This document shows, piece after piece, positions 346-18,680 of a stretch of DNA of 20,000 nt; position 1 is the first letter of the stretch; every line of letters starts with the position of its first letter. The DNA comes from Peribolospora baueri (Eukaryota), in assembly GCA_029717555.1 (NCBI GenBank), contig JAMDHS010000037.1:178400-198399 (forward strand). Direction: 5' to 3'. The position numbers were made by a program, and so were the translations under genes. The notes under the pieces are model-generated. The model had not been told where the DNA came from, did not search any database, and saw only the letters and a list, made by a program, of their open reading frames with translations.

Positions 346-2843
346 TCAAATCAACCCCCGCAGATCGGCCTGCCAGATCTCCTCCCAGCTCATGTACTCC
401 TCTCCCTGCCCCACCGTCTCGTCCACCTTCCTTCCCTTCTCCTCACCCGGCTGCAGCAGGACGCTCTTGTGCCACAGCGGCCTGAGCAGCGTGTCCACGA
501 CGTGCACCGCCCCGTTCCTTGCGATCCAGTCGCGCACCAGCGTCCTCACGCCGCGACCGCGACCGTGGTCATGGCTGTGAGAGTGGCCGTGATGAGCGTT
601 CAGCTCGAGCGCGAAGAACCGAAGTCCACGGCCTCTCTTCCACGGGAACTTTGGACGAAGGACGAGCTGGTCGACGAGGATCGTCTGAAACTTCTGCGCC
701 TTTTGGTCGACCGTGTCGAGGGAAGAGCGACCCTCGAGGAGGGTGGAGAGGTTGTGGCTCGTTCGGTTCACAACCTCCAGCAGCGGAGGCCAGTGGTATG
801 AGAGTCGACGCCTTGGGCGGCCGCCGCGGCCGCGGCCGGGGCGGGGTGCTCGTGGCGGGCCGCGGGGAGGACGCGGTGCGGGAGGAAGGCGACGAGGACG
901 CCGTCGGCCGGGGAGGGGGGAGGAAGGGATGTCTTGAAGAATTATGGAGTCGTCCTGGTCGTCTTTACCCTTCGCCGCTACCGCAGCATCAACGTGGTGA
1001 AGGTAATCCGTAAAGACAATGTCAGAGGGCACGACGTGGTACTGAAGGATCTTTTTCAGCAGGCGCTCTCCCTTCGGGCTGAATAGGTAGGCGCGGAAGC
1101 CGGGTGGGAGGCGGGAGAAGGCCCTGTTCGTGGGGGCGAACAGGGTGAGCGCGCCGGACCCCTTGTCCTTGCCCTCCGTCGCGTTAGGATCCCATTTAAC
1201 GGCCTTGTCGAGGCCGGTCTTGTAGAGCGCGGTCGTGAGGACGGAGAAGAAACGGGGGTGGAAGAGGAGCTGTTGGAGGACGGAGGGAGGAGGGATGAGC
1301 GGGTGGGTGATGCCGTGGATGATGCCGTTAGAGCAGTGCACATTCGTGAGGTGGCTGAAGGGGGGCACCGTCTTCGAATGGAAGTTGAGGCGGAGGCCGG
1401 GGAAGGGAAACTGCGGACACAAATGGACGAACATGGGAGAGACGAAGCGACGAGAATCCAAAGTCACCGAGCTGTCCGTGCGTCACAGTAGAGGTAGAAA
1501 GCGCGAGTCATCACTGCGACACTCACCAGACTCTTGCTCACCCTCACCCTGAGTGGCTGGCCATCCCAAACTCCACCAAGCGGCTCCAGGTCGCCGCGGA
1601 GGAGGGTGTCGACGGTGGCGTTGTTCGCGATCTCGCGCGTCGTCAGGGGCTCGGAGAGCAGGTGGTAGGACAGAACGGCGTTGAAGAGGACCGCCTTCCT
1701 CTCGTCACTATCATGGGATTCTGACGTGACCGGGTCAGAGGCGAACAAGTATTCGAGGGACTCCCATCCGTCGTCCTCCTTGACGTGCTCACAGCCGTGG
1801 CTACGAGCAGGAGGATCCTGAGGACCCCTTCCGGGAGGAGAAGGGGAAGACCACCAGCCCAGGGACCCCCTGCCCGGAGGCGGTGGGGGTGGCGGCGCAC
1901 GCGCAAGCTCACGTCCAGGTGGGGCCCTGCGTCCGGGTCCCCGACGGCGACAACGATGGGGGCGGTGGTCGACGGGAGCGAACAAGGTCAAGTTGGCCTT
2001 AGTATCGTTGAGGCTCTTGACGAGGTCGAGGTCAGAAGCGAAGGAGGCGTTGAGGAGGTGGAAGAGGCGAGTAAAGTGGGGTGAGGCAGCGAGGAAGTCT
2101 AGGATGGTTTGGTTGGTCGTCTGTGCGCGGGCGGAAGGAGAGGGCGATCAGCGAGGAGAGCTGAGGAGACGGCTATGAACAGACACACTCACCATCTCTT
2201 CCGGCTTGTGACGATGGTCGGGGAAGCGATCGATTTCGTCCTGATCTTCCTGAACGGTGAAGTCGCCCTCTTGTTCATCAAGCACGTCGTCGTCGACGAC
2301 ATCGAAGCTGGCATTCATGTCTCCTTCGTGCTCGTCCACTTCTTCTTCCTGCTCCCCTTCTGTCTCCACTACATCTCCCATCTCCTCCTCCTCCTCCTTC
2401 ATGTCGACGACATCATCGTCCTCACCGCCGACGAGGTCGTCATAATCGACGTCAAGATGCTCGCCAACTGGGAGAATCCACACATCGTCCGCCTCGCCTT
2501 CTGTCTTGCCCTCCTCTTCCTCCTTCGACGCTGCCACTTGGCTCGACAACTGCGCCCTCTCGCCGTCGTCTCCGGCTTGGCTGTGAGACCATCCAAATAC
2601 GTGCTCCGTCAGCTCCTCCCACACCTCCTCGGCGAGGCTCGCGGCGACCTCGAGCACGGGCTGGCCGGTGAGGTGAAAGGCGTGTTGGCGGTCGTGAGCG
2701 GCGGAGGTAGGATCGTCGCGGGGAGCAGGCTGATGCTGGGGGGAGGAGAAGAGGCGATCGATGGAGAAGGAGGTGGGGGCGGAGACGACGGAAGGGAGGA
2801 GGGGAACGAAGGCGAGGGCGAGGGAGAGGGCGAGGTGGCGCAT
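346..2843 (-). CDS. Secreted fasciclin (FAS1) domain protein with two FAS1 domains, ~769 aa; exons 2843-2193, 2120-1527, 1410-346
   Basis: ATG at 2843 starts a signal-peptide-like sequence (MRHLALSLALAFVPLLPSVVSAP). Two GTGAGT...CAG introns (2192-2121, 1526-1411) join the exons in frame. FAS1 H1/H2-type motifs occur twice: LTLFAPVD ... VLSYHLL ... NGIIHGITHPL and LTLFAPTNRAF ... ILQYHVV ... ARNGAVHVVDTLL. Confidence 0.88.
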
Positions 2844-3022: not shown

Positions 3023-3841
3023 TCGTCGTCGATGCTTCGCCTCGCTGCGCGGAAGGAAGAGGCACACAAGGTGAGTCGAGGCCGGAAAGCGCAGTCAGCG
3101 ACGAGCGATGAACGACGCAAATGGAGTTAGTCAGTGGGCAGACCCATCGGTCCCCCTTTGCAGCGTACGCATCGCATCGCATCAAGAACAGTTAGGACCA
3201 TCGACAAAGGAAAAAGAAACCGGGTCCTCGATCGTCCCGCCGCTGTCATCATCCGTCGTCACCCTCGTCTCACCACCGGCCGAGAAGACGGCGGCCACGA
3301 CGACGACGACGACGAAGACGATTCGACGACGAAGACGACACAACACGACGACACCACTTCTTGCTCTTATCGCCCTTTCGCCCCCTCTTCTCCCCGCCGC
3401 TCGTCCCCGTCCCGCCAGCCGCGCCCTCTTGCCACGGCCCCCTCCTCGCCGTCGTCGCTCTGCGCAGTCGTCGTTCCGCGCAGACTGATTAAGCCAACTC
3501 GCGACTGCGCACACGAGCACTGCGGACGTTGCTCACGTAAGCCGTCGCTGCGAGTCACGTGCTGAATGGCGATCGGGGTCCGAGGGCCACCACTACGCTC
3601 GTGTCATGCTCGTGCTCGTGCTTTGAGTCGATATGATATCGTATCGTATCCCCACCGCCGTCGTCCACTCCATCATTCCTCCTGTTCGCTCTCGCACTTC
3701 CTTCTCCTCTTCCCTCTTCAATTCATCTCGATCTTTCTCACTTTCTCTTTCTTCAGCCTCGCGTGCGGTTTTTCGACCCCACCACACCAAACCTCCCCCC
3801 TCCTCGCCCACCGCCTCCCGCACCCTAACCCCTGACCCACC

Positions 3842-6800
3842 ATGTCCGCCTTCTTCCCCCGCTCCTCCGTTTACTCCATCTTCCAGGATGACCATGCCGC
3901 GCTCGCCTCAGCCGCCGCCGCCGATGAGGCTTTAGACCTCGACGCGTCCGACGATCCTCACAGCCCCCGCCGTCCCACCGGCTCTGCGATCGTCGATGAC
4001 GATGATTACGACCTCGAGGTGGGACGAAAAGGAACGGCGACCGCTTCGAGAGACATGAGTAACCGGAGGTGGAGATCTCCGCCGGCCTCCACCTCATCTC
4101 CTTCCTTTCCTTCCTCCTCCACCACCCCCGCCAGGCCTTTACTTGGTCTGCTCAACCCCGCCGGCAGGGCTTTTGCCCAGAGAAGGGCCAACTGGATGGG
4201 CTACGAGAGCTTGGCGGGCGTGGAGGAGGGCAACGCGGAGGGGGCGGAGGAGGAGGGCGAAGAGGAGCGCCGGCGGACAGGCAAGGAGGTGGAGGACGAA
4301 GAGGAGCGCCGGCGGACAGGCAAGGAGGTGGAGGACGACGACGACGACGATGATGACGACGCTTCGCCCCCTGCCAGCATCATGCTCGAGACGGGCGGCG
4401 CTAGCTCCAGCCGTCGTCCACGATGGTTGTCCAAACACGGCCTCAACATCACCACGAGCCCCACTTCTGTCCCTCCAGCCGCTGCTGGTCCAAGTACGGA
4501 TGCCGCCGTGGACGACCCGTTCAACTCCCCCCTCGAAACGGGAGACCAAACGCCTCGCTCTCGGACGCCTTCCTCGTCCGACGGGCGCCGCTCTTCCTTT
4601 GCCCTCAGCACGAACTCGGCGGCGGTAGAGACAGCTGTCAAGGGCACGACCGCCTCAAAATCGCAGAAGCCCTCCTCTCCCGACAAGGCGAGGAGGACGT
4701 CTGAACCAACCTCCGCCGGCTCCAGACCGGTCGAGTCCATTCAGCTCTCTCGCACCGGTGCTGCCCGTTCCCGTTCCTTCTCCTCTTCGGCTCGGCCATC
4801 TCATCATCCGCGGTCTCAGTCCCGCTTCAGCTCGACGTCCGGCGACGGTGATCAAAATGGTGACGCCGATAGCTACGGCTACGGTTATCGGGACGCCGGA
4901 CCTTCGTCCCGGCTTGGAGGCATGTCGGGCTTGGACGAGAGGGAAAAGGCGCTGTGGAAGTGGGTGAACGTGGAAGATCTGGATAGCTTCTTGCAAGAGG
5001 TTCGTCCTCTTCTCTTTCTTTCTTTTCCCGCTCCATACTCGTCACTCGAACGCGCCAAGTTTTATTTTTCTCACCGTCCCCCTCTTTCACACACACAGGC
5101 GTACGCGTACTACGTCGGTAAAGGCCTAGTCTGCATCGTCCTCTCCCGCGTCCTTAACCTCTTCACTGTTGCCTTCGTCATCGGCTTCACCACCTTCCTT
5201 CTCGGCTGCGTCGATTACTCGCGCATCCGACACGACGGAAACTTGCACGAAGTCGTCGTGCCTCACTGCGTTTCGAGGTGGGTCGGGATGAGACGGATCG
5301 TTGCTTCGGTGTTGTGTCGGAAAAGCTCACATCATCCATTCTTCCACCCTCCCATCGTAGGTTCTCCGGCCTCACCCTCTTTCTCCTCTTCCTCTTCTCT
5401 GCCATGTTCGGCTGGCAGGTCGTCCGCTTCGGCTTCGGACTCCGCCGATTAATCGACATGTATCGCTTTTACACTCACCTGTTGAACATTCCTGACGTGA
5501 GCGCGAGCCCCTTTGTTCTTTCGCTCTGTCTCGTGCGGTCGCTGATGGATGCCTCGTCGCTCCTCCTCACCGCACCACAGGCGGACATTCAAACCATCTC
5601 TTGGTCCGACGTTGTGACTCGCATCTCTCTCATCCGCTCCCAGAACCCCTCCACCGCCTTCTCCTCTTCCCGGCCGGGCGGCCACGGGCCCCGGGAGATG
5701 GACGCGCACGACATCGCGAACCGGATCATGAGGCAGGAGAACTACCTGATTGCCCTCTTCAACAAGGACCTCCTCAACCTCACCGTACCCTTTCCCGGCC
5801 TAAGAAATCTCAGCCCCGTCCTGACGCGCACGCTCGAGTGGAACCTGAGTTTTTGCCTCCTTGGCTACCTCTTCGATCGGAGAGGGAGGGTGAGGAGGGC
5901 GTTCGTGAGCTCGAGGCATCGCGCCGACTTGATCGAGGGGTGAGCGGGTCCGCGTCGTGTCCAACGCTCCTTTCATCGTTCCTCGCACGTCCGTCTGATG
6001 GCTCGCTCATTCGCTTTGTCTTCCCTTTCGTCCCTTTTACCGCAACTCGCCGACAGTCTCCGACGAAGATTCATCTTCATGGGCGTCCTCAACGCTATTT
6101 TTGCACCCTTCATCGTCCTCTACCTTCTCATGTATTCCTTCTTCCGCTACTTCGAGGTGCGTCCGCCCTTTTTGCTTTCTCTTCTCGTTCTCGCTCCCCT
6201 GACCTGTACTTGCCCGGCCGCGGCCGCACCAGGAGTACCACAAGAACCCGTCGACGATCGGCTCGCGACAGTACACCCAGTTCGCTCGCTGGAAGTTCCG
6301 CGAGTTTAACGAGCTGCCCCATCTCTTCCAGAAGCGCCTCGCATCGAGCTACCCGCTGGCAAACGCTTATATCAACCAATTTCCCAAGGAAAGGGTCGCG
6401 CTGCTTTCTCGGTGAGTTGGGCGCGAACGGAGTCCATTATTTTCGATTCGGTCCTCATGTCTGTCCCTCTCTCTCTATCCCTCCCGCCAGCTTCGTCGCC
6501 TTCGTCGCCGGCTCTTTCGCCGCCGTCCTCCTCCTCGCCTCCGTCCTCGATCCAGATCTCTTCCTCCACTTTGAGATCACGTCACAACGGACGGTACTCT
6601 TCTACATCGGCCTTTTCGGCACCGTCGTCGCCGTCGCTCGGTCCATGATCCCGGACGAGAATCAGGTGTTCGAGCCAGAGGTGCTTCTCAGGGCCGTCGT
6701 CGAGCACACGCACTACTTGCCGGACTCGTGGAAGGGCAAGATGCATTCCGCCGAGGTGCGTCTCGGCCGTCTGTCCGTCCGTGGGTTCGGCCACTCACTC

Positions 6801-7884
6801 ACCCACCCTACACCCTCTTCGTTCTACAGGTCCACGCAGCCTTCGGCTCCCTCTTCACGCTCAAAGTCCTCATCTTCATCCAAGAACTTCTCTCCGTCCT
6901 CTTCACCCCTTTCGTCCTCTTCTCCAGCCTGCCCAAGTGCGCGCCTGCGTTGATCGACTTTTTCAGAGAGTTTACCGTTCATGTCGAGGGCGTTGGCTAT
7001 GTGTGCAGCTTTGCCGTGTTTGACTTTAAGAGGCATGGTAACGTCCGGGTGAGTGTCGAGTCGAGCGTACGAGCCCAGATGGAGGCCTTTTTGGGCGGAC
7101 GCTGAGCGTGCCGCGTTTACGTCCACGTCCGCGCGTCCCGCAGTTCGGAGCCCCGACAGAAGTGACCGATGCGCGGCTCATGTCGAAGGAAGGAAAGATG
7201 GAAAAGAGCTTCATCGGCTTCAAGGCGAGTACTCGCTTCTCATCCCCGTCTTTCTTCCTTACAAACGAAGCATCGGTCCGGTGTGACTGACTGACCGACT
7301 GACTGATTGACTGGATGGACGGCACACAGGCAAATCACCCTGACTGGGTACCACAAGATCCGTCCAGTTCTCTCTATCTCTCCCGCCTCACCGAGCTCGG
7401 AGTCGCCGATCCGTCCCACCACCTTCGCCCAGCCACCGGCCTCACATCGCCCCTCGCCGGCCGTCTGCACGGCTACCACCCGTCCGCCTTGGCCACCGCC
7501 ACCGCCACCGCGAACCGCTTCCGATCTCCACCTGTCGACACGGGTGCGGGCGCGCCGCCGCCGCCGACGACGACGACGACGACGACGGTGGACGACGCGC
7601 ACACGAGCGGGAGAGGTCGTCATCGTCATCGCGCCGGCGCTGGCACAGGCGCAAGGAAGGACACGACTGGCGAGGGGGAGGATGGACCGGAGGAAGGGCT
7701 GGCAGGTGTATACGACGATATGGGGTTAGAAAGAGACGACGAAAGCCAAGGTGCTGGAAAGCGAAAGGGCGACGACGACGGTGAGGCAGCGGGCGTCCTA
7801 GGACTCTTAGGCCAGATATATCGTGGCGCAAGCGGGCCGGCGGGTGCGGCGGGTGCGGCGGCTGGCACGAGGACGGGGTGGTGA
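3842..7884 (+). CDS. ATG9: Autophagy-related protein 9 (lipid scramblase), ~1076 aa; exons 3842-4999, 5099-5277, 5361-5496, 5581-5939, 6057-6156, 6233-6411, 6491-6755, 6830-7048, 7144-7224, 7330-7884
   Basis: The spliced translation contains Atg9 hallmarks: [123 protein letters not shown] and C-terminal [10 protein letters not shown]. Exon lengths sum to 3231 nt, a multiple of 3. Confidence 0.96.
4259..4336 (+). repeat. Exact 39-bp tandem duplication within ATG9 exon 1 ([13 protein letters not shown] x2)
   Basis: gaagaggagcgccggcggacaggcaaggaggtggaggac occurs at 4259-4297 and 4298-4336. Confidence 0.95.
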
Positions 7885-8881: not shown

Positions 8882-11800
8882 CTAGACGTGAAAAGCAAAC
8901 ATGGTTTGCGACGCGGCATTCACCGCGTCAGCGCCGCCGCACGAGTCGATAAACTCGGACAAAAAGTCCTGGCCCGCGTCGTTGAGCCCCTCAAGGCCGA
9001 GCGTCGTGCCCACGCCCGCGCCCGCGCTCGCGCCGGCGTCAAAGCTAGCTCCGGCGCCGGAAGACACGTCGTTCAGCGCGGCGGCCAACGAACCGTCAGG
9101 CATCCAGCCATCGCCCTCCGTTGCGGCGAGGCCGACGAGGCCGCCAGACATGAACTGCGGTGCGTCGGCGTTCATCGGCGACGAGTTGGACGATGACGAC
9201 GACGAGGAAGAGTGGGTGACGGCGGCAACCAAGGACGATGCGGCGGCTTTAGCGCAAGGGGGAGCGGCGCCGCCGGGGGCAAAGACGTTCCGGACGGGCG
9301 AGTCAACCGCCCATCCGTCCGCGGCGGCCCACTTCTGTCCGAGCCTGCTCCTCAGCCAAGGGCTACCGGGCCTGGGAGCCGAGGGCGCCTCGAGCGGGGT
9401 GTGGATGACCTGCGGGAAGGGCGTCACGGGCTGCGAGCCGGCGCCACCGGTGGCGGTGCTCGCGGAGCACATGGAGAGCAGACCGACGGAGAGTTCGCCA
9501 GAGGAGAGAGCGGCGGAGGGGGCGGTGGAGCGAGTGAAGGCCTGGGCAGGCGGGATGGACACGCTGAGGTTGTGTTTGTTGATCGAGCCCTGACGTCGGC
9601 GGCCCGTCTGCGGCTGATGCTGCTGTTGGTGGTGGTGGGCGACGACATCGTCACCGAGGGAGATGGCGGGCATGGGCGAGGTGAATGACTGAGGGCTCGG
9701 GATCTGCTTGGAGCGCACTGCGAGCAGGGACACGGACGCTTGGCCGGCTCGCGTCTCATGGGGCGGGAGGCACTCGAGGTCGTAACAGACGACGAGGACG
9801 ACGTTTCCAATCTCGCTGCCCTTGCTCACGTTCGCCCTCGCGCTCGCCGGTTCGTCGTCGGACGCGCGCACGACAAACTCCTGCACGACGGAGAGGCCGC
9901 CGACGGCGTTGAGGAGGGCCTCTCGCTCCTCGGTCGTCTTGGCCAGGTTGAGCCTGCCGGAGGACCCGGAGGAAGGGGTGGCGGCGACGGCGGCCGAGCC
10001 ACGGTTGTTGGAGGCCAAAGCACCGCGGAAGAAGAGAGAGAAGAACTCGGGGGCGAAGGGAGCGACGTGGGAGTATTTGTGGCCCAGCGGGAGGCCGACC
10101 GAGTCGGCGGTGCCGGGGACGACGCGCTCCGGAGGCGCGAGGTTCTCCTCGAGCGAAAGCACCTGGCGTCCGCACGAGTAGACGGTGGTGACGGCGGTGA
10201 GGGTCTGCTCCTGCTGGGACGAAAGAGTGATCTTTGTGTGCAGGTTATCGAACACCATCGCCGTCTCCGAGTGAGGGAGGGAGACGGTGGCGTTGACGTA
10301 AAGGAACTGGCACGGCAGCCGGTTGTACATGGCCGGCAGCTGGGCGAACTTGGGTACCGAGTGAGGGATGTCCTCGAGGAAGACGGTGGACAGGCCGCCC
10401 GCGGAGGGCTTGTCGAGGCGGGTGTAGACGTGCATCGCATCACTAACCGACGAGTCGGCCCACATGCAGAAGCTGGACGGCAGGATGGGCCCGGCGACTT
10501 GGGAGGGAGGTCCCATGGAGAGGGCGAGAGCGGGAGCGCTGTTGGGGGGCATGCTGTGGTGCTGCTGGTGCTGGTGCTGCTGGTGCTGGTGCTGTAGCGG
10601 CGGCGGGTGGGGGAAGTGCAGCTCGTCGAGGGCGGCGGTGAGGGAGGAGGTGGCGGACATGGGAGGTGCGATCATAGGGAACGGGTAGGCGGGAGAGGGG
10701 TGACTGGCGGCGGTGAGGAGGGCAGGCGAAGGGGCGCCGGAGAAGAGAGAGCCAGTAGACGCGCTGCCCGCCGAGCCCGGTCGACCGTAGAAGGTGGGAG
10801 TGTAGGGAGAAAGGAGACCTTGGGTCTGAGCGGAGATGAGGCTAGCCGGCCAGCCGGAAGCCATGGTGGAGTAGGTGCCCATGGTGTAGTTCATGGCGAG
10901 GGCCTGCTGAAGGCCAGGGAAAGAGGCGAGAGCGGGGAAGTATTGAGGGCCGCCGGCGGGGGTGAAAAAGTCCTCGTCGCTGGTGGGCTCGGAGACGAGA
11001 CTCATGACTGGCGGGGAAAGAGGAAATCAATCATCACATAACGGGCGGGGCAAGAATCATCACATAACAAAGTCAGAAGACGCCGGAAGAAGAAGAAGAA
11101 GAAGAAACAACAACTCACAATCCGCATCACCGCGCTTAACATGCTTAAGCACCTGAATATGACTCGACACCTGCTTCCTGCTCCTCACCTTGCCCGTCTT
11201 GCGGAGGATGTAATCGGCAATCAACTCGTTTCGGCCACACGGCTTGCCGTTCACCAGCACTTTTCGACGGCCGAGCTTGGGAACGATACGCAGGGCGTCG
11301 TAGAAGGCCTCTTCCACGTCTTCGGGCCACACTTCGGCCGTCTTGTCCTTGCCGCCGGATGGCGACGACTCCTTTCTGGCGGCGCCCAAAAGCGACGTGT
11401 TGGGACGCGAGAAGGAGCCGCCGGAAGCGAGCACGGTGGCCAGGGCGGAAGAGGCTCGACGAGGCGGCGGCACGGCCCCTCCCAGTCCCGGTCCGGCCGA
11501 GGTGGAAGGGCGACGTACGGCCGACGCGTCGTCGTGCTTGGGCAGCGCGGGGGCAGTGGCGGCGACGGCGGTGTGGGGCGGGACGGAGAGACTGGAGAAG
11601 AGCTTGCGGGCTGGGTTGACCGACAGAGCGTCGGCGGCGGCGGAGGGGTGGCGGGCGTCGTCGGGAAGGGGGAACGTCTTGGTGCGGAGAGGGGAGTAGG
11701 GCGTGCCGCGTCGGGTGACGGACACGTCCTGGTCCATGGCCGCGTCCTCGTCGGCGGCGTTGTCGACCGAGTTGGTGGGCGATCCGGTAGGGGCGGAGCG

Positions 11801-12730
11801 GGGACGGTCGAGGTGGAACGCGTCGTCGAGGCCAAAGGCGGAGGGCGCGGCGGTAAGGAGGCCGCCTCGGGCCGTCGAGGACGCGTCGGCGGTGGCGACG
11901 CGAGGGGCGGCGGCGGCGATCGCCGGTGGCATGAAGGCAAAATGCGGGGTGGCCGGCGTGGAGGCCTGAGACTGGCTATCGGACGCGGCGCCTTGCTCGG
12001 CGGGCTCGGCGGTGGTCAGGCCCGAGGGCGCGGGGTGGATGGCGACAGGGAGGCCGTTGGACGCGTCCTGGCTGGAGGAGGGCTGTCGAGGGGTCTCAAA
12101 CTTGAGGCCGACGCCGTGATTGGCGGCGGTGACGTCGATGAGAAGCCTCGGCGGCGTCCCGCTGGCGGCCCTCTTGGCCTCTCGAGGCGCTTCGGAGGGA
12201 GTGAGATCTTGGTCGTCGTCGGCGCGGGTGCCTTGTTCTTCGTCGTCGGGCGACTTTCGCTTGACCGACTTGGACGTGGCGGGGGTGGGGGGGAGGAAGG
12301 CGTTGCCGAGGCTGGAGACGGCGGAGGAGAGGCCGGGCATGGGTCTAGACGGCGTATCGAACGAGTAGCTGCCGGCGCCGACGGGGCTGCTGAAGGTGCC
12401 CGAGGGGCCGGAGGGGAGGCTAGCGTACGAGTCGGAGGAGGACATGCTGGCGCTGGAGATGGAGGAGGAGGGCGAAGGGTCGGGGCACCATGCGACGGAG
12501 AGGGTGGTGGTGGTGCCAGGGGGGAGCCTGAAGGGGGGCTCGCGGTCGTCGGAGGCCAAGATGCGGACGGCGTCGTCGTTGGGTTCGCGTTTTACGTTGG
12601 CGCTGGCGGCGGCGTTGGCGTTGGGCTGGCGGGACGAGGCGGAGGGGTGGACGGGGGAGGCGAGGAGGGGCGAAGGGCCGTCGTCGTCGTTGCTCGACGC
12701 GGGCCGAAGAGCGTCGTGAGCCGAGACCAT
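8882..12730 (-). CDS. TEA/ATTS-domain transcription factor (Tec1/AbaA/TEAD family), ~1245 aa; exons 12730-11119 and 11007-8882
   Basis: Clear TEA domain VWPEDVEEAFYDALRIVPKLGRRKVLVNGKPCGRNELIADYILRKTGKVRSRKQVSSHIQVLK (~11150-11335). A phase-1 GTGAGT...CAG intron (11118-11008) joins it in frame (GDAD-F-MSLVSEP) to the 707-aa ORF. The first in-frame ATG is at 12730. Confidence 0.92.
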
Positions 12731-13185
12731 GACGGCTTGGGGTGGTGGTGGAGGAGCAGGAGAAGTGAAAGACTTAAGGGGATGAAAAAGGACGGTGGGT
12801 TGAAAAGACAGTGGGCAGTGAGAGGGGTGGGGAGGGTTCGAAGGATGGTGGTGGTCGACGAAGATCGAGGTCGAGGTGGAAGTGGAAGTGGAAGCGAGAG
12901 GTGGAGCGAGGGAGTGGTGGATGCGACGACGGCGTCGCCTAAAGAAAGGCCGGAGGCTGGTTGGTTGGTTGGTTGGTTGATTGAATGCCGGGCTCGGCGT
13001 CCCTTGCCTGTGTTCGTCTCGTCGTCCGTCGATCGGGTGTGCCTTCTCCCACCCCGTCCGTCCGCTCGCCGGTCTCACACGGCGGCTGGCTGGCTGTGTG
13101 GATATGGACCCGGCTGGGGGATCGTCGTCGCCGGCCGGCAGAGAGGAAGGAAGAAGAAGGGGCCGTCGGTCGTCGGATCCGGAGA

Positions 13186-13210
13186 TGCGTTGCGTTGCGT
13201 TGCGTTGCGT
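13186..13210 (+). repeat. (TGCGT)5 microsatellite
   Basis: Read directly from the sequence. Confidence 0.9.
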
Positions 13211-13635
13211 GCGGGCCTTCTCCTACCTACGAAACGGCGAGGGCCGGGAGAAGAAGGAGAGGGCGCGAGAAGGGGGCTCGGAGGGAGGAAGAGACGATGG
13301 GGAGAGACGAGACGAGACGAGACTAATGGCGGGGCGAGGGAGGCGGGCGAGGCGAGGCGCGAAGAGAAGAGAAGAGAGGGACGGTGGGAGGGACAGACAG
13401 AGAGACGGGGTATGTCAGATCGGAATCGGGCCCGGCCTAGCTGGCACGGCGGATGGCCGCTGAGAGGGGGCGGGCGAGGGAGGGAGAGGAGGGAGAGAGG
13501 GAGGAAGGAGAGTGAAGGAGAGAGAAGGAAAGTGATGAGGAGGGAGTGGGAAGAAGCAGAGTGGGACGAGGGAGAGCGGAAAAGGGGACGAAGGGGGACG
13601 AATGGGTGAGAGAGAGAAAGAGGAAGAGGAAGAGG

Positions 13636-16951: not shown

Positions 16952-18680
16952 ATGCCCACCTGCACGCGCAAAGGATGCGGACAGCCGTACGAGGTCGGAA
17001 GCGTAGACGGGTGCCGCTACCACCCGGGCGGTCCTGTGGGTGGCTCCCGCTCTCTTTCTCCCCATGGTCGACGCATGGTCTATCGGTCTTGTTCGCCGTC
17101 TTTCTGGCCTGACCTTGCTCGCTTCTATATTCCATCCATTTTCTCCTGTACAGGTCTTTCATGAAGGTCTGAAGGTGAGCGCCCCGCGTTCGATCTGGCT
17201 AAGCCTGCCGGGACCCAGGCGGCGTTGGCCATTGCTAGCCGACGGACGGGGACCCATTAGAAGGGACAGCTAACCCGTGCGCGCTCTTGGCTCTACACTC
17301 TTCCACAGAGCTGGTCTTGCTGCAAGGACATGAACAAACCTGTAATCGACTTTGATGCGTTTATGAAGATCCCCGTGAGACGTCTTTACTTCCCTTTCTT
17401 TCTTTAGTCGCCTTGACGTGGCTCATCTGACCCCCGGTGTTCACGTCTCTGACGGCCGTTCGCTCGCTCCTCCTTGATAGGGTTGTGCCGAAGGCCAACA
17501 TACGGATGCAAAGCCCGAGCCTGCCTCGGGAACGTCTACTTCCACCACCCAGCCGAGCGCCGAAGCGCCTACCAAGACGGTCGGGAAAGACGGCGTAGAG
17601 GTATACGGTACCCCCTTGCCCGTCTCGTCCTCATCCGCCTCCGAGAAGCCCTCTCCGTCCCCGAAGCCTTTGACGCCACGCACACTCTCAAAGGAAGAAG
17701 AAAAAGACGATGTGGGTGTTCCTGTGCCGAAGGGGACACGATGCAAGCGCACGGCGTGCGGTAAGGAGTACGTGAGCGAGGCAGAGAGCAGGGGCGGCAA
17801 GGTGGATGAGGAGGGACGGTGGGAAGAGGAAGGAGAGGAGGACGGGAGGGCTTGTAGGTATCATCCTGGACAGCCTGTCTTCCACGAGGGGAGCAAGGTG
17901 AGCCGGCGCCGTTCGTGTCGTGTCGCCCGAGAGCATCCAGTTCTGCGGGATCGGTCGACGTCGCTCACTCGCCCATCTCTCCTCTCAGGGGTACACCTGC
18001 TGCAAACGGCGCGTGATGGACTTTGACGATTTCCTCAACATCAAAGGTTGCAGATTGGCCAAGAGCGGTCATCTCTTCATCGGCTCAGCGACATCCCGAG
18101 CGGCGACGAAGGAAGCGGATGCGGCGTCGAGAGAGGGCTTGGAGGAAGGAGAAGAGCCGACAGAGTGTAGGATCGATCATTACCAGACTCCCGGGGATGT
18201 GAGGGTCAGCGTGTTTGCCAAGGGGGCCGATCCGGAGAAGAGCAGGGTCGAGTTTGGGGAGGAGGAGGTGAGTTCGAGTGGACATGATCGATCGATCGCT
18301 CGGTCGCCGACCGTCGTCGGCACATGGCTCAAGGTCGTCTGCCTCTTCCTGTCCCGTCCCTGCCCCAGGTTCTTCTCTCCATACACATCCCCGGCACGAC
18401 CACCTCTCCCTCTCCCAAGCGCTACCACCGACGACTTTCCCTCTACGGTCCGATCGACCCGACGTCGTCATCGTTCACGTTCATGCGAACCAAGGTCGAA
18501 CTGGTGCTCGTCAAAAAGGACAACCGATCGTGGAACACTCTGCAGAGGCTTAAGCATTCGACGGTGGACTTGGGGAGAGGGTATGGGCCAATGAACTTGA
18601 CGTTTGGTGCGACGGGGAGGACGGGTACGGTGGGCGGGAGGGAGATGGTGTTGCAGGAGGACAACAAGCTGAAGCGTTGA
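16952..18680 (+). CDS. CHORD-CHORD-CS protein (CHORDC1/Morgana/Chp-1-like Hsp90 co-chaperone), ~392 aa; exons 16952-17035, 17154-17174, 17309-17374, 17481-17897, 17989-18267, 18369-18680
   Basis: CHORD-I: CTRKGC...[20 protein letters not shown]...DFDAFMKIPGCAEGQH. CHORD-II: CKRTAC...[36 protein letters not shown]...HLF. CS domain: CRIDHYQTPGDVRVSVFAK...LYGPIDP...TKVELVLVK...SWNTL. Five GT-AG introns keep the frame (1179 nt). Confidence 0.94.

What the first reader, a model, noticed from the sequence alone, without database searches (positions are those of the whole stretch)
9713..10489. Fungal TEA factor appears to carry a TEAD-like YAP-binding domain
Seen: amid low-complexity sequence, exon 2 encodes a ~260-aa ordered-looking block. 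By eye it matches the animal TEAD YAP-binding domain (YBD, recalled from memory) in the same order: HVYTRL~HLFVHI; LSTVFLEDI..KFAQLPAMY~LESVDIRQI..KFP..LKELF; FLYVNATVSL~[36 protein letters not shown]~[37 protein letters not shown]~[18 protein letters not shown]~NFTILLVV; NVVLVVCYDLEC~TLLCMACVFEV; ASVSLLAV~AQHHIYRLV. Known: the YBD is the Ig-like beta-sandwich that docks YAP/TAZ/VGLL. The well-studied ascomycete TEA proteins Tec1 and AbaA are usually described as sharing only the TEA domain with TEADs, and fungi lack a recognised YAP. Inference: this lineage keeps an ancestral TEA+YBD architecture, which implies an unidentified fungal co-activator or ligand, i.e. a possible Hippo-like nuclear output module. 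I cannot tell whether this has already been reported for basidiomycete Tea1-type proteins.
Basis: partly seen in the sequence, partly recalled or inferred. Interest (0 to 1): 0.85.

Follow-up and report, generated by a model that had tools for sequence, protein, structure and literature searches.

The report
Fungal TEA factor keeps TEAD-like domain
A basidiomycete TEA-family transcription factor carries a very diverged copy of the co-activator docking domain of animal TEAD proteins, although fungi are not known to have the animal partner YAP, so what this domain binds in fungi is an open question.

Summary
Window 9713-10489 (minus strand) encodes a 259-residue ordered block in exon 2 of a two-exon TEA/ATTS gene; the TEA domain lies in exon 1 (Pfam E 3e-29).

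The block is a true but highly diverged homologue of the TEAD YAP-binding domain (YBD):
- The AlphaFold2 model is confident (pLDDT 89.6). It matches the TEAD2 YBD at Z 17.9 (184 of 199 residues, rmsd 2.7 Å). The next folds, PDE6D, UNC119 and RhoGDI, score Z 6-8.
- A profile of its TEA-less relatives aligns to Mucoromycota TEA+YBD proteins at hhalign probability 98.7%, E 2e-16. Those proteins match solved TEAD and Scalloped YBD chains at E 1e-16 to 1e-10.

Direct Pfam and PDB sequence searches miss it, so databases annotate only the TEA domain.

The domain is conserved in all three basidiomycete subphyla and in Pezizomycetes and Pneumocystis. The acylated pocket Cys and Lys of animal TEADs are not conserved.

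Fungal YBDs are already annotated by Pfam in Mucoromycota, so the architecture is not new for fungi. What is new is that it persists, unannotated, in Dikarya. The partner is unknown, and the "Hippo-like output" idea is untested. Interest is moderate.

The parts
11120..12730 (-). Exon 1 coding part, residues M165-D701 of the upstream frame. Base 11119 is the first base of a split Phe codon. The start codon is only the first in-frame ATG and is inferred.
   Evidence: Relatives have TEA domains at comparable distances from their N-termini (e.g. P0021, P0027).
11141..11338 (-). TEA/ATTS DNA-binding domain.
   Evidence: Pfam PF01285, E 3.1e-29, 101.5 bits, profile positions 2-67 of 68. Coordinates.
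11008..11118 (-). Phase-1 intron of 111 nt, GTGAGT...CAG.
   Evidence: The spliced reading ...DAD-F-MSLVSEP fits the family consensus DxEFxxLxxEP. Many database gene models start at the Met just after this intron (A1 consensus).
8882..11007 (-). Exon 2, including the stop codon at 8882-8884. It encodes the linker, the YBD-like domain and a long, mostly disordered tail.
10958..10990 (-). Conserved acidic-aromatic motif EPTSDEDFFTP just after the TEA domain.
   Evidence: Majority-conserved columns in the 60-sequence alignment A3.
9719..10486 (-). Diverged TEAD-type YAP-binding domain: a beta-sandwich plus a helix pair (the finding, 9713-10489).
   Evidence: AF2 pLDDT 89.6, pTM 0.87. VIA Z 17.9 to the TEAD2 YBD 9neo_A. 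Foldseek E 2.3e-12. hhalign 98.7%, E 2.3e-16 to Mucoromycota YBD proteins.
9971..9997 (-). Disordered lineage-specific insertion between the two helices of the domain (P0001 residues 165-173, pLDDT below 50).
   Evidence: The hhalign alignment shows a gap opposite this stretch.
10049..10051 (-). Pro codon (P0001 P147) at the column of the acylated pocket Cys of animal TEADs.
   Evidence: Transitive alignment. The column holds Cys in 1 of 60 relatives.
9548..9577 (-). Conserved tail motif KHNLSVSIPP (family consensus KPNLxLxIPP).
   Evidence: Found in 23 of 65 basidiomycete-set proteins and in 0 of 119 and 0 of 17 proteins of the other fungal sets.
9323..9430 (-). Conserved tail motifs PVTPFPQVIHTP..P (9374-9430) and the predicted helix PWLRSRLGQKWAA (9323-9361).
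   Evidence: The helix 556-568 has block pLDDT 70 and 67; its flanks are below 50.
8942..8971 (-). C-terminal acidic-hydrophobic helix QDFLSEFIDS (family consensus DYFxxLL).
   Evidence: pLDDT is only about 50.

Best explanation
The finding is the C-terminal domain of a basidiomycete TEAD-family transcription factor of about 1245 residues, encoded in two exons.

Shown: exon 1 encodes a long N-terminal region and the TEA DNA-binding domain. Exon 2 encodes a linker, a roughly 256-residue domain that is a diverged homologue of the animal TEAD YAP-binding domain, and a long disordered tail with basidiomycete-specific short conserved motifs.

Inferred: the protein binds DNA through the TEA domain. 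It uses the beta-sandwich and helix-pair domain as a docking platform for one or more co-regulators that are not YAP, since YAP/Yorkie is placed in holozoans only. The Cys and Lys that carry the fatty acid in animal TEADs are replaced (Pro and Leu here). The domain is therefore most likely not covalently acylated; its core is either packed by side chains or holds a lipid non-covalently. The architecture was inherited from the common ancestor of fungi and animals. In Dikarya it has drifted beyond the reach of the Pfam YBD model.
For: Fold:
- The AF2 model from 26 sequences has pLDDT 89.6 and pTM 0.87.
- Among 48,161 PDB representatives, TEAD2 YBD 9neo_A scores Z 17.9, rmsd 2.7 Å, 184 of 199 residues aligned, 17% identity. 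The next hits are PDE6D 8.3, UNC119 8.0 and 7.5, and RhoGDI 6.3 and 6.1.
- In Foldseek, all 44 rows shown are TEAD YBD chains, at E 2.3e-12 to 5e-11 and TM 0.63-0.73 normalised by target length.

Sequence evidence, independent of AF2:
- hhalign of A1 (26 TEA-less family members) against A2 (25 Mucoromycota TEA+YBD proteins) gives probability 98.7%, E 2.3e-16 over 206 columns. It spans P0001 residues 1-258 and A2 positions 261-471 of 488.
- The same part of A2 matches 43 YBD-only chains of TEAD1-4 and Scalloped at E 5.6e-16 to 3.5e-10.
- An HMM of 59 family domains matches Pfam-YBD-positive Mucoromycota proteins at E 5.3e-7 to 8.6e-4, even with the database size set to 1.84e9.
- With a mixed Dikarya profile, the only PDB matches at E<=10 are 14 TEAD4 YBD sequences. 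These are colinear but weak, E 0.21-0.82.

Architecture: a TEA domain lies N-terminal of the block here and in 36 of 68 relatives scanned.

Conservation: named relatives are Ceraceosorus, Tilletiaria and Malassezia (Ustilaginomycotina); Meredithblackwellia, Microbotryum, Rhodotorula and Sporobolomyces (Pucciniomycotina); and Dacryopinax (Agaricomycotina). The family HMM also matches Tuber, Pneumocystis and Rhizina at E 3e-11 to 4e-7.

Lipid residues:
- The TEAD1 Cys in the printed stretch 'spmcey' aligns to an Asn that is invariant in Mucoromycota (25 of 25) and to P147 here. The family column reads T23, S13, A10, P6 and C1 of 60.
- The Lys in 'vvekve' aligns to L113. That column has no Lys in 60 sequences.
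Against: Direct searches fail:
- Pfam hmmscan of the block and of all of exon 2 gives no family at E<=10.
- phmmer of the block against PDB gives nothing at E<=10.
- The A1 profile against PDB gives nothing at E<=10.
- PF17725 appears in only 1 of 68 relatives scanned, and below threshold (P0069, E 0.068, 13.4 bits against a cut-off of 23).

The link to animal YBDs therefore rests on a fold prediction and on transitive profile evidence.

No binding partner, lipid or expression data exist for this gene. The residue mapping for the Cys and Lys is transitive and could be off by a residue or two, although no conserved Cys or Lys lies within three positions. Which printed Cys is 'C359' rests on my own count of the numbering. 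The start codon and the absence of further introns are inferred.
Confidence: 0.85

Rival explanations
1. The YBD fold is retained but no longer docks a co-activator in trans. It would serve only a structural, stabilising or oligomerising role in the transcription factor, a relic of the ancestral module.
For: No YAP is placed in fungi (PMC4761220, passage read). The lipid-attachment Cys and Lys are lost. Identity to animal YBDs is only 12-17%.
Against: Strong conservation of the domain across three basidiomycete subphyla and early ascomycetes. The most conserved stretches include the helix pair that forms a partner-binding groove in animal TEADs (consensus APFAxDFW..FL and SVVQEFVV); the role of that groove is recalled, not tested here.
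Confidence: 0.2
2. The domain's partner is built in. The basidiomycete-specific tail motif (a short extended stretch, a Pro-rich linker and an amphipathic helix, residues 533-568 of exon 2) would fold back onto the YBD like a Vestigial/YAP peptide in cis. That would auto-regulate access of other factors.
For: The tail motifs are conserved in 23-35 of 65 basidiomycete-set proteins and absent from 0 of 119 and 0 of 17 Mucoromycota/ascomycete proteins. AF2 predicts a helix at 556-568 with pLDDT about 70 amid disorder. The strand-linker-helix layout resembles Tondu/YAP peptides (recalled).
Against: In the single-chain model the 533-549 stretch stays below pLDDT 52 and forms no strand. Contacts could not be read from the tool output.
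Confidence: 0.1
3. The block is a generic lipid-binding immunoglobulin-like beta-sandwich of the PDE-delta/UNC119/RhoGDI type that resembles the YBD by convergence. Alternatively, AlphaFold merely recalled the TEAD fold.
For: PDE6D, UNC119 and RhoGDI are the next structural neighbours (Z 6.1-8.3). No direct sequence hit to TEAD was found.
Against: There is a gap of almost 10 Z units to the TEAD2 YBD. Sequence-only profile evidence links it to accepted YBDs. It occupies the same position after a TEA domain.
Confidence: 0.03

Closest known systems
YAP-binding domain of animal TEAD1-4 and Drosophila Scalloped (Pfam PF17725; solved structures e.g. 9neo, 3kys, 6y20)
   Same: Same fold and order of elements: Z 17.9, with 184 of 199 residues superposed. 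Same position C-terminal to a TEA domain. Colinear conserved segments.
   Different: - Only 12-17% identity, and no match to the Pfam model.
- An insertion of roughly 25 residues, partly disordered, between the two helices, and a longer loop before the APFA strand.
- The acylated Cys and Lys are replaced.
- The host protein has about 1245 residues with long disordered regions, against the roughly 430 residues I recall for animal TEADs.
- No YAP is known in fungi.
Mucoromycota TEA + YBD proteins (e.g. Linnemannia elongata P0081; Mortierella, Mucor, Rhizopus)
   Same: Fungal, with TEA followed by YBD. Homologous at hhalign E 2.3e-16. They also lack the pocket Cys, which is Asn in 25 of 25.
   Different: These are recognised by Pfam PF17725 (90 of 120 listed rows) and match TEAD chains directly (E 3e-9). 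They are compact (about 400-690 aa) and lack the basidiomycete tail motifs (0 of 119).
Ascomycete TEA factors Tec1 (S. cerevisiae) and AbaA (Aspergillus)
   Same: They share the TEA domain. A 2025 review describes the homology as lying in the DNA-binding domain (PMC12672301, passage read). One Malassezia member of this family is even named 'Regulatory protein abaA' by its source.
   Different: That the Tec1 C-terminus binds Ste12 is recalled, not checked.
PDE6-delta / UNC119 / RhoGDI lipid-binding beta-sandwiches
   Same: The same general beta-sandwich class. They are the next structural neighbours (Z 8.3, 8.0, 7.5, 6.3, 6.1).
   Different: Only about 130 residues superpose, at 7-11% identity. 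They have no helix pair and no TEA context.

Membership tests
TEAD-type YAP-binding domain (YBD) | Beta-sandwich plus helix-pair fold as in solved TEAD YBDs | tested here: met
   VIA Z 17.9, rmsd 2.7 Å, 184 of 199 residues of 9neo_A; the next fold scores Z 8.3. In Foldseek, all 44 rows shown are TEAD YBD chains, best E 2.3e-12. The model has pLDDT 89.6. This is a predicted model, not a solved structure.
TEAD-type YAP-binding domain (YBD) | Lies C-terminal to a TEA/ATTS domain in the same protein | tested here: met
   TEA domain at 11141-11338, YBD at 9719-10486, same strand, joined by a 111-nt intron whose splice restores the family consensus. The order is the same in 36 of 68 relatives scanned.
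TEAD-type YAP-binding domain (YBD) | Significant sequence homology to accepted YBDs | tested here: met
   Met by profiles only: hhalign 98.7%, E 2.3e-16 to Mucoromycota Pfam-YBD proteins. Those proteins match TEAD and Scalloped YBD chains at E 5.6e-16 to 3.5e-10. The family HMM matches Pfam-YBD-positive proteins at E 5.3e-7 with Z set to 1.84e9.
Pfam PF17725 (YBD) as currently modelled | Score above the Pfam gathering cut-off (23 bits) | tested here: not met
   No hit at E<=10 for the block or for exon 2. Of 68 relatives scanned, 1 has a sub-threshold hit (13.4 bits). I read this as a limit of the model's reach, so I file the domain as a diverged homologue outside the present Pfam model.
TEAD-type YAP-binding domain (YBD) | Conserved pocket Cys (and nearby Lys) that carries the fatty acid | tested here: not met
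   The Cys column is Pro here and Cys in 1 of 60 relatives. The Lys column is Leu here and Lys in 0 of 60. The Mucoromycota YBDs that Pfam accepts also lack the Cys (Asn in 25 of 25), so this feature defines animal TEADs rather than the domain family.
TEAD-type YAP-binding domain (YBD) | Binds YAP/TAZ, Vestigial-like or another co-regulator | not testable with these tools
TEA/ATTS transcription factors | TEA DNA-binding domain | tested here: met
   PF01285, E 3.1e-29, 101.5 bits against a cut-off of 25.1.

The most novel reading that the evidence does not exclude
The Dikarya YBD is a working docking platform whose partner is not YAP. The partner is either a fungal co-regulator still to be found, or the basidiomycete-specific tail motif (residues 533-568 of exon 2) acting as a built-in Vestigial/YAP-like peptide. 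Docking of a co-regulator onto TEAD would then predate YAP and the Hippo pathway, and would have persisted in fungi without covalent lipidation.
Probability: 0.3. Interest if true: 0.7.

Novelty: new member of a known kind. Interest (0 to 1): 0.42.

Why it matters
Reviews describe fungal TEA factors as sharing only the DNA-binding domain with animal TEADs (PMC12672301, passage read). Databases annotate this basidiomycete family with the TEA domain alone.

If the co-activator docking domain has been kept in basidiomycetes and early ascomycetes, then the TEA+YBD module is older than YAP. That sets a concrete, testable question: what binds this domain in fungi, and does it couple to MAPK or NDR/LATS-type signalling? 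Several named relatives are from tractable or medically and industrially relevant yeasts (Rhodotorula, Malassezia, Sporobolomyces).

It would also give a natural YBD without the acylation site, useful for comparing how the lipid pocket contributes to stability.

It is not a new kind of system, because Mucoromycota YBDs are already annotated by Pfam.

Tried and rejected
Searches that found nothing or too little:
- Pfam hmmscan of the block and of exon 2: no family at E<=10.
- phmmer of the block against PDB: nothing at E<=10.
- Profile of 26 family members against PDB: nothing at E<=10.
- A mixed profile (A4) reached only weak TEAD4 matches, E 0.21-0.82. I use these as colinear hints, not as proof.
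- ESM Atlas look-alikes gave TcA_TcB_BD clusters at 0.85. This is below the level the tool calls a lead, with low recognition, so I rejected it.

Tools or data not available:
- Complex prediction, to test docking of the 525-580 tail onto the domain: the queue was full and the tool was then declared unavailable. The in-cis idea is untested.
- Whole-genome search for partners, paralogues or Vestigial-like proteins: no genome is held for this window.
- Sequencing runs: no RNA holder was listed, so splicing and expression were not checked with reads.
- Earlier findings of this scan: none.

AbaA and Tec1: the search from the Tuber protein found 21 proteins, and every named one is from Pezizomycetes. 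Whether AbaA or Tec1 keep the domain is open.

Single-chain AF2 of all of exon 2 gave no confident docking of the tail motifs.

Literature:
- Sebe-Pedros et al. 2012 is not held. I know it only through the summary passage in PMC4761220.
- Full-text searches for a description of a YBD in Dikarya TEA factors found none. The library lacks most subscription journals, and I did not look at supplements.
Full report
**What is in the sequence.**
- The minus strand of 8882-11026 is one 714-residue stop-to-stop frame.
- Immediately upstream, the frame 11060-13222 carries a Pfam TEA/ATTS domain on residues 629-694, window 11141-11338 (PF01285, E 3.1e-29, 101.5 bits).
- Between the two frames lies a 111-nt interval, 11008-11118, that starts GTGAGT and ends CAG.
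- Splicing it out joins ...RGDAD, a split Phe codon, and MSLVSEP.... This reproduces the family consensus DxEFxxLxxEP of the 60-sequence alignment A3.
- The predicted product is about 1245 residues if the first in-frame ATG (12730) is the start (inferred).
- No RNA run was listed for the locus, so the splice is supported by homology only.
- Neighbours are ordinary fungal genes: a fasciclin-domain protein, ATG9 and a CHORD protein.

**Direct searches fail.**
- Pfam hmmscan of the block and of all of exon 2 returns no family at E<=10.
- phmmer against PDB sequences returns nothing at E<=10.
- An HMM of 26 family members against PDB also returns nothing at E<=10.
- The word-indexed protein search found 4 relatives, two of them from Ceraceosorus and all annotated with PF01285 only.
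- The exhaustive search of 1.84 billion representatives found 70 proteins at E<=1e-3 (58 at <=1e-10, 20 at <=1e-30).
- I scanned 68 of these 70 against Pfam. I left out P0005, already known, and P0068, a 4611-residue protein with a short repetitive match.
- 36 of the 68 have a TEA domain, always N-terminal of the matched block. Only one, P0069, shows PF17725, at E 0.068 and 13.4 bits, below the 23-bit cut-off.
- The 32 models without TEA include many that begin at the Met just after the intron (A1 consensus MxLVxxP...). I read these as exon-2-only gene calls.

**Fold.**
- AlphaFold2 on P0001 with 25 TEA-less relatives gave mean pLDDT 89.6 and pTM 0.87. 200 of 259 residues are at or above 90, and there is one disordered loop at 165-173.
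- Foldseek against the PDB returned at least 500 matches, 223 of them at E<=0.001. All 44 rows shown (ranks 1-50) are TEAD YBD chains, with E 2.3e-12 to 5e-11, probability 1.00, TM 0.63-0.73 normalised by target, and 12-16% identity.
- There are very many TEAD entries, so I also ran the search over 48,161 cluster representatives, which does not rely on Foldseek.
  - TEAD2 YBD (9neo_A): Z 17.9, rmsd 2.7 Å, 184 of 199 residues aligned, 17% identity, model 1-258 against chain 227-446.
  - Only one other chain reaches Z 8, PDE6D at 8.3.
  - Then come UNC119a (8.0), UNC119B (7.5) and RhoGDI (6.3, 6.1).
- The gap of almost ten Z units makes this specifically the TEAD YBD fold, not just a generic sandwich.
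- A second model of all 714 residues of exon 2, with 60 sequences, again folds only 181-436 confidently.

**Sequence evidence independent of the model.**
- A search from the compact relative P0069 listed 120 of 176 hits. 90 of the 120 carry both PF01285 and PF17725 in the precomputed Pfam column.
- Every named one of those 90 is from Mucoromycota (Mortierella, Linnemannia, Mucor, Rhizopus, Absidia, Umbelopsis and others).
- The 8 named Dikarya rows (three Tuber, three Pneumocystis, Rhizina, Malassezia) have PF01285 only (counts are mine, from the table).
- I aligned 25 of the Pfam-YBD-positive proteins as A2.
- hhalign of the TEA-less family alignment A1 against A2 gives probability 98.7%, E 2.3e-16 over 206 columns. 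It covers P0001 residues 1-258 and the C-terminal region 261-471 of 488 of A2.
- The same region of the A2 profile (positions about 246-441) matches 43 distinct YBD-only chains of TEAD4, TEAD1, TEAD3, TEAD2 and Drosophila Scalloped at E 5.6e-16 to 3.5e-10. Five further matches are TEA-only chains.
- A single Linnemannia C-terminal fragment matches Scalloped at 3.1e-9 and TEAD1 at 5.2e-9.
- Locally, an HMM of 59 family domains was searched against 120 stored proteins, with the database size set to 1.84e9.
  - Pfam-YBD-positive proteins: 5.3e-7 (P0114), 1.2e-4 (P0110, P0102), 2.8e-4 (P0078) and 8.6e-4 (P0081).
  - Tuber: 3.3e-10 to 5.9e-10. Pneumocystis: 3e-11 to 1.8e-8. Rhizina: 4e-7.
- A mixed Dikarya profile with one Mucoromycota fragment (A4) retrieves 14 sequences from the whole PDB at E<=10. 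All 14 are TEAD4 YBD chains, colinear but weak, E 0.21-0.82.
- Together these make homology, not convergence, the clear reading.

**Range.** Named relatives come from:
- Ustilaginomycotina: Ceraceosorus, Tilletiaria, Malassezia.
- Pucciniomycotina: Meredithblackwellia, Microbotryum, Rhodotorula, Rhodosporidiobolus, Sporobolomyces.
- Agaricomycotina: Dacryopinax.
- A search from the Tuber protein found 21 proteins; the named ones are all Pezizomycetes (Tuber, Choiromyces, Morchella, Rhizina, Geopyxis).

The diverged YBD is thus widespread in Basidiomycota and present in early-branching Ascomycota. Whether Tec1 and AbaA themselves keep it could not be tested.

**How it differs from the animal domain.**
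- I chained the hhalign alignment with the printed phmmer alignment to TEAD1.
- The TEAD1 Cys in the stretch printed as 'spmcey' (chain index 152 of 6hil_A) aligns to an Asn that is invariant in the 25 Mucoromycota proteins and to Pro147 of P0001.
- In the 60-sequence family the column reads T 23, S 13, A 10, P 6, R 2, E 2 and one each of C, M, L, D.
- The Lys in 'vvekve' (index 129) aligns to Ser, Ala or Thr in Mucoromycota and to Leu113 here. That column holds no Lys in 60 sequences.
- That these two residues are TEAD1 C359 and K336 rests on my own numbering: an offset of 207 puts printed cysteines at 327 and 359.
  - PMC8546857 (passages read) names Cys359 of TEAD1 as the pocket cysteine.
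  - The title of 6gei names Lys344 of TEAD4 as myristoylated.
- Covalent acylation as in animals is therefore unlikely. This is an inference from alignment.
- The domain also has a partly disordered insertion between its two helices (H147-155 and H186-197 of P0001) and a longer loop before the APFA strand.
- Residue-level conservation of the YAP and Vestigial interfaces could not be read, because the tools return no coordinates.

**The tail.**
- Downstream of the domain the family shares short motifs in otherwise disordered sequence: KPNLxLxIPP (484-493 of exon 2), PxTPxxQxxHTPxxPPP (533-551), RxRLxxxW (559-566) and DYFxxLL (686-693).
- Simple patterns for the first three occur in 23, 31 and 35 of 65 basidiomycete-set proteins, many of which are partial. 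They occur in 0 of 119 Mucoromycota/ascomycete proteins and 0 of 17 Pezizomycete proteins.
- AF2 makes 556-568 a helix with block pLDDT 70 and 67, and 686-695 a helix at about 50. The 533-549 stretch stays below 52.
- The layout of extended stretch, Pro-rich linker and amphipathic helix recalls Vestigial/YAP peptides (recalled).

**What is known.**
- PMC4761220 (passage read) summarises Sebe-Pedros et al. 2012 as placing Sd in the common ancestor of amoebozoans, fungi and animals, Yki only in holozoans, and a loss of Sd in chytrids. The 2012 paper itself is not held.
- PMC7035326 (passage) places the Yorkie/Scalloped complex no earlier than Corallochytrium.
- A 2025 review describes the homology with AbaA and TEC1 as lying in the DNA-binding domain (PMC12672301, passage).
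- A 2026 study of a basidiomycete Tec1 does not mention a YBD (PMC13117471, term search).
- Six full-text searches found no description of a YBD in Dikarya TEA factors.
- The held library lacks most subscription journals, I read no supplements, and predicted-structure databases could not be consulted. Prior notice elsewhere cannot be excluded.

**Verdict.**
- Most likely this is a TEAD-family transcription factor. Its C-terminal domain is a diverged, non-acylated YBD that serves as a docking surface for a non-YAP co-regulator. The fold and the homology are shown; the function is inferred.
- It is a new member of a known kind. TEA+YBD in fungi is already annotated for Mucoromycota. The persistence of an unannotated, diverged YBD across Dikarya appears undescribed in the papers I could search.
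- The 'Hippo-like output module' reading remains an open hypothesis.

Noticed in passing
window 11008-11118 and database models P0008-P0066: 32 of the 68 relatives scanned lack a TEA domain. Many begin at the Met right after the intron position seen here (consensus MxLVxxP...). They look like exon-2-only gene calls made without splicing, and they suggest a conserved intron position just after the TEA domain.
   Followed up: partly
window 8942-9577 (minus strand): Basidiomycete-specific conserved short motifs sit in the disordered tail (KPNLxLxIPP, TPxxQxxHTP..PPP, RxRLxxxW, DYFxxLL). They are absent from the Mucoromycota, Tuber, Pneumocystis and Pezizomycete relatives examined. Their function is unknown.
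   Followed up: partly
window 3836-6953 (+): Two adjacent frames both match Pfam ATG9 (E 9.7e-21 and 3.5e-36). This is presumably one autophagy ATG9 gene split by an intron or frame change.
   Followed up: no
window 346-2147 (-): Frames with Fasciclin domain matches (E 4e-17 and 1.4e-4), probably one multi-exon fasciclin-domain protein gene.
   Followed up: no
window 17902-18594 (+): A frame with a CHORD zinc-binding domain match (E 1.6e-8).
   Followed up: no
related proteins P0006, P0099, P0230: Source names look misleading. A Ceraceosorus bombacis family member is named 'protein tyrosine phosphatase-like protein ptpla', a Mucor velutinosus TEA+YBD protein is named 'NAD-dependent histone deacetylase sir2', and a Malassezia restricta member is named 'Regulatory protein abaA'.
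   Followed up: no
window 10540-10590 and about 9640-9670 (minus strand): His/Gln-rich low-complexity runs flank the ordered domain on both sides. The columns are poorly occupied in relatives.
   Followed up: no
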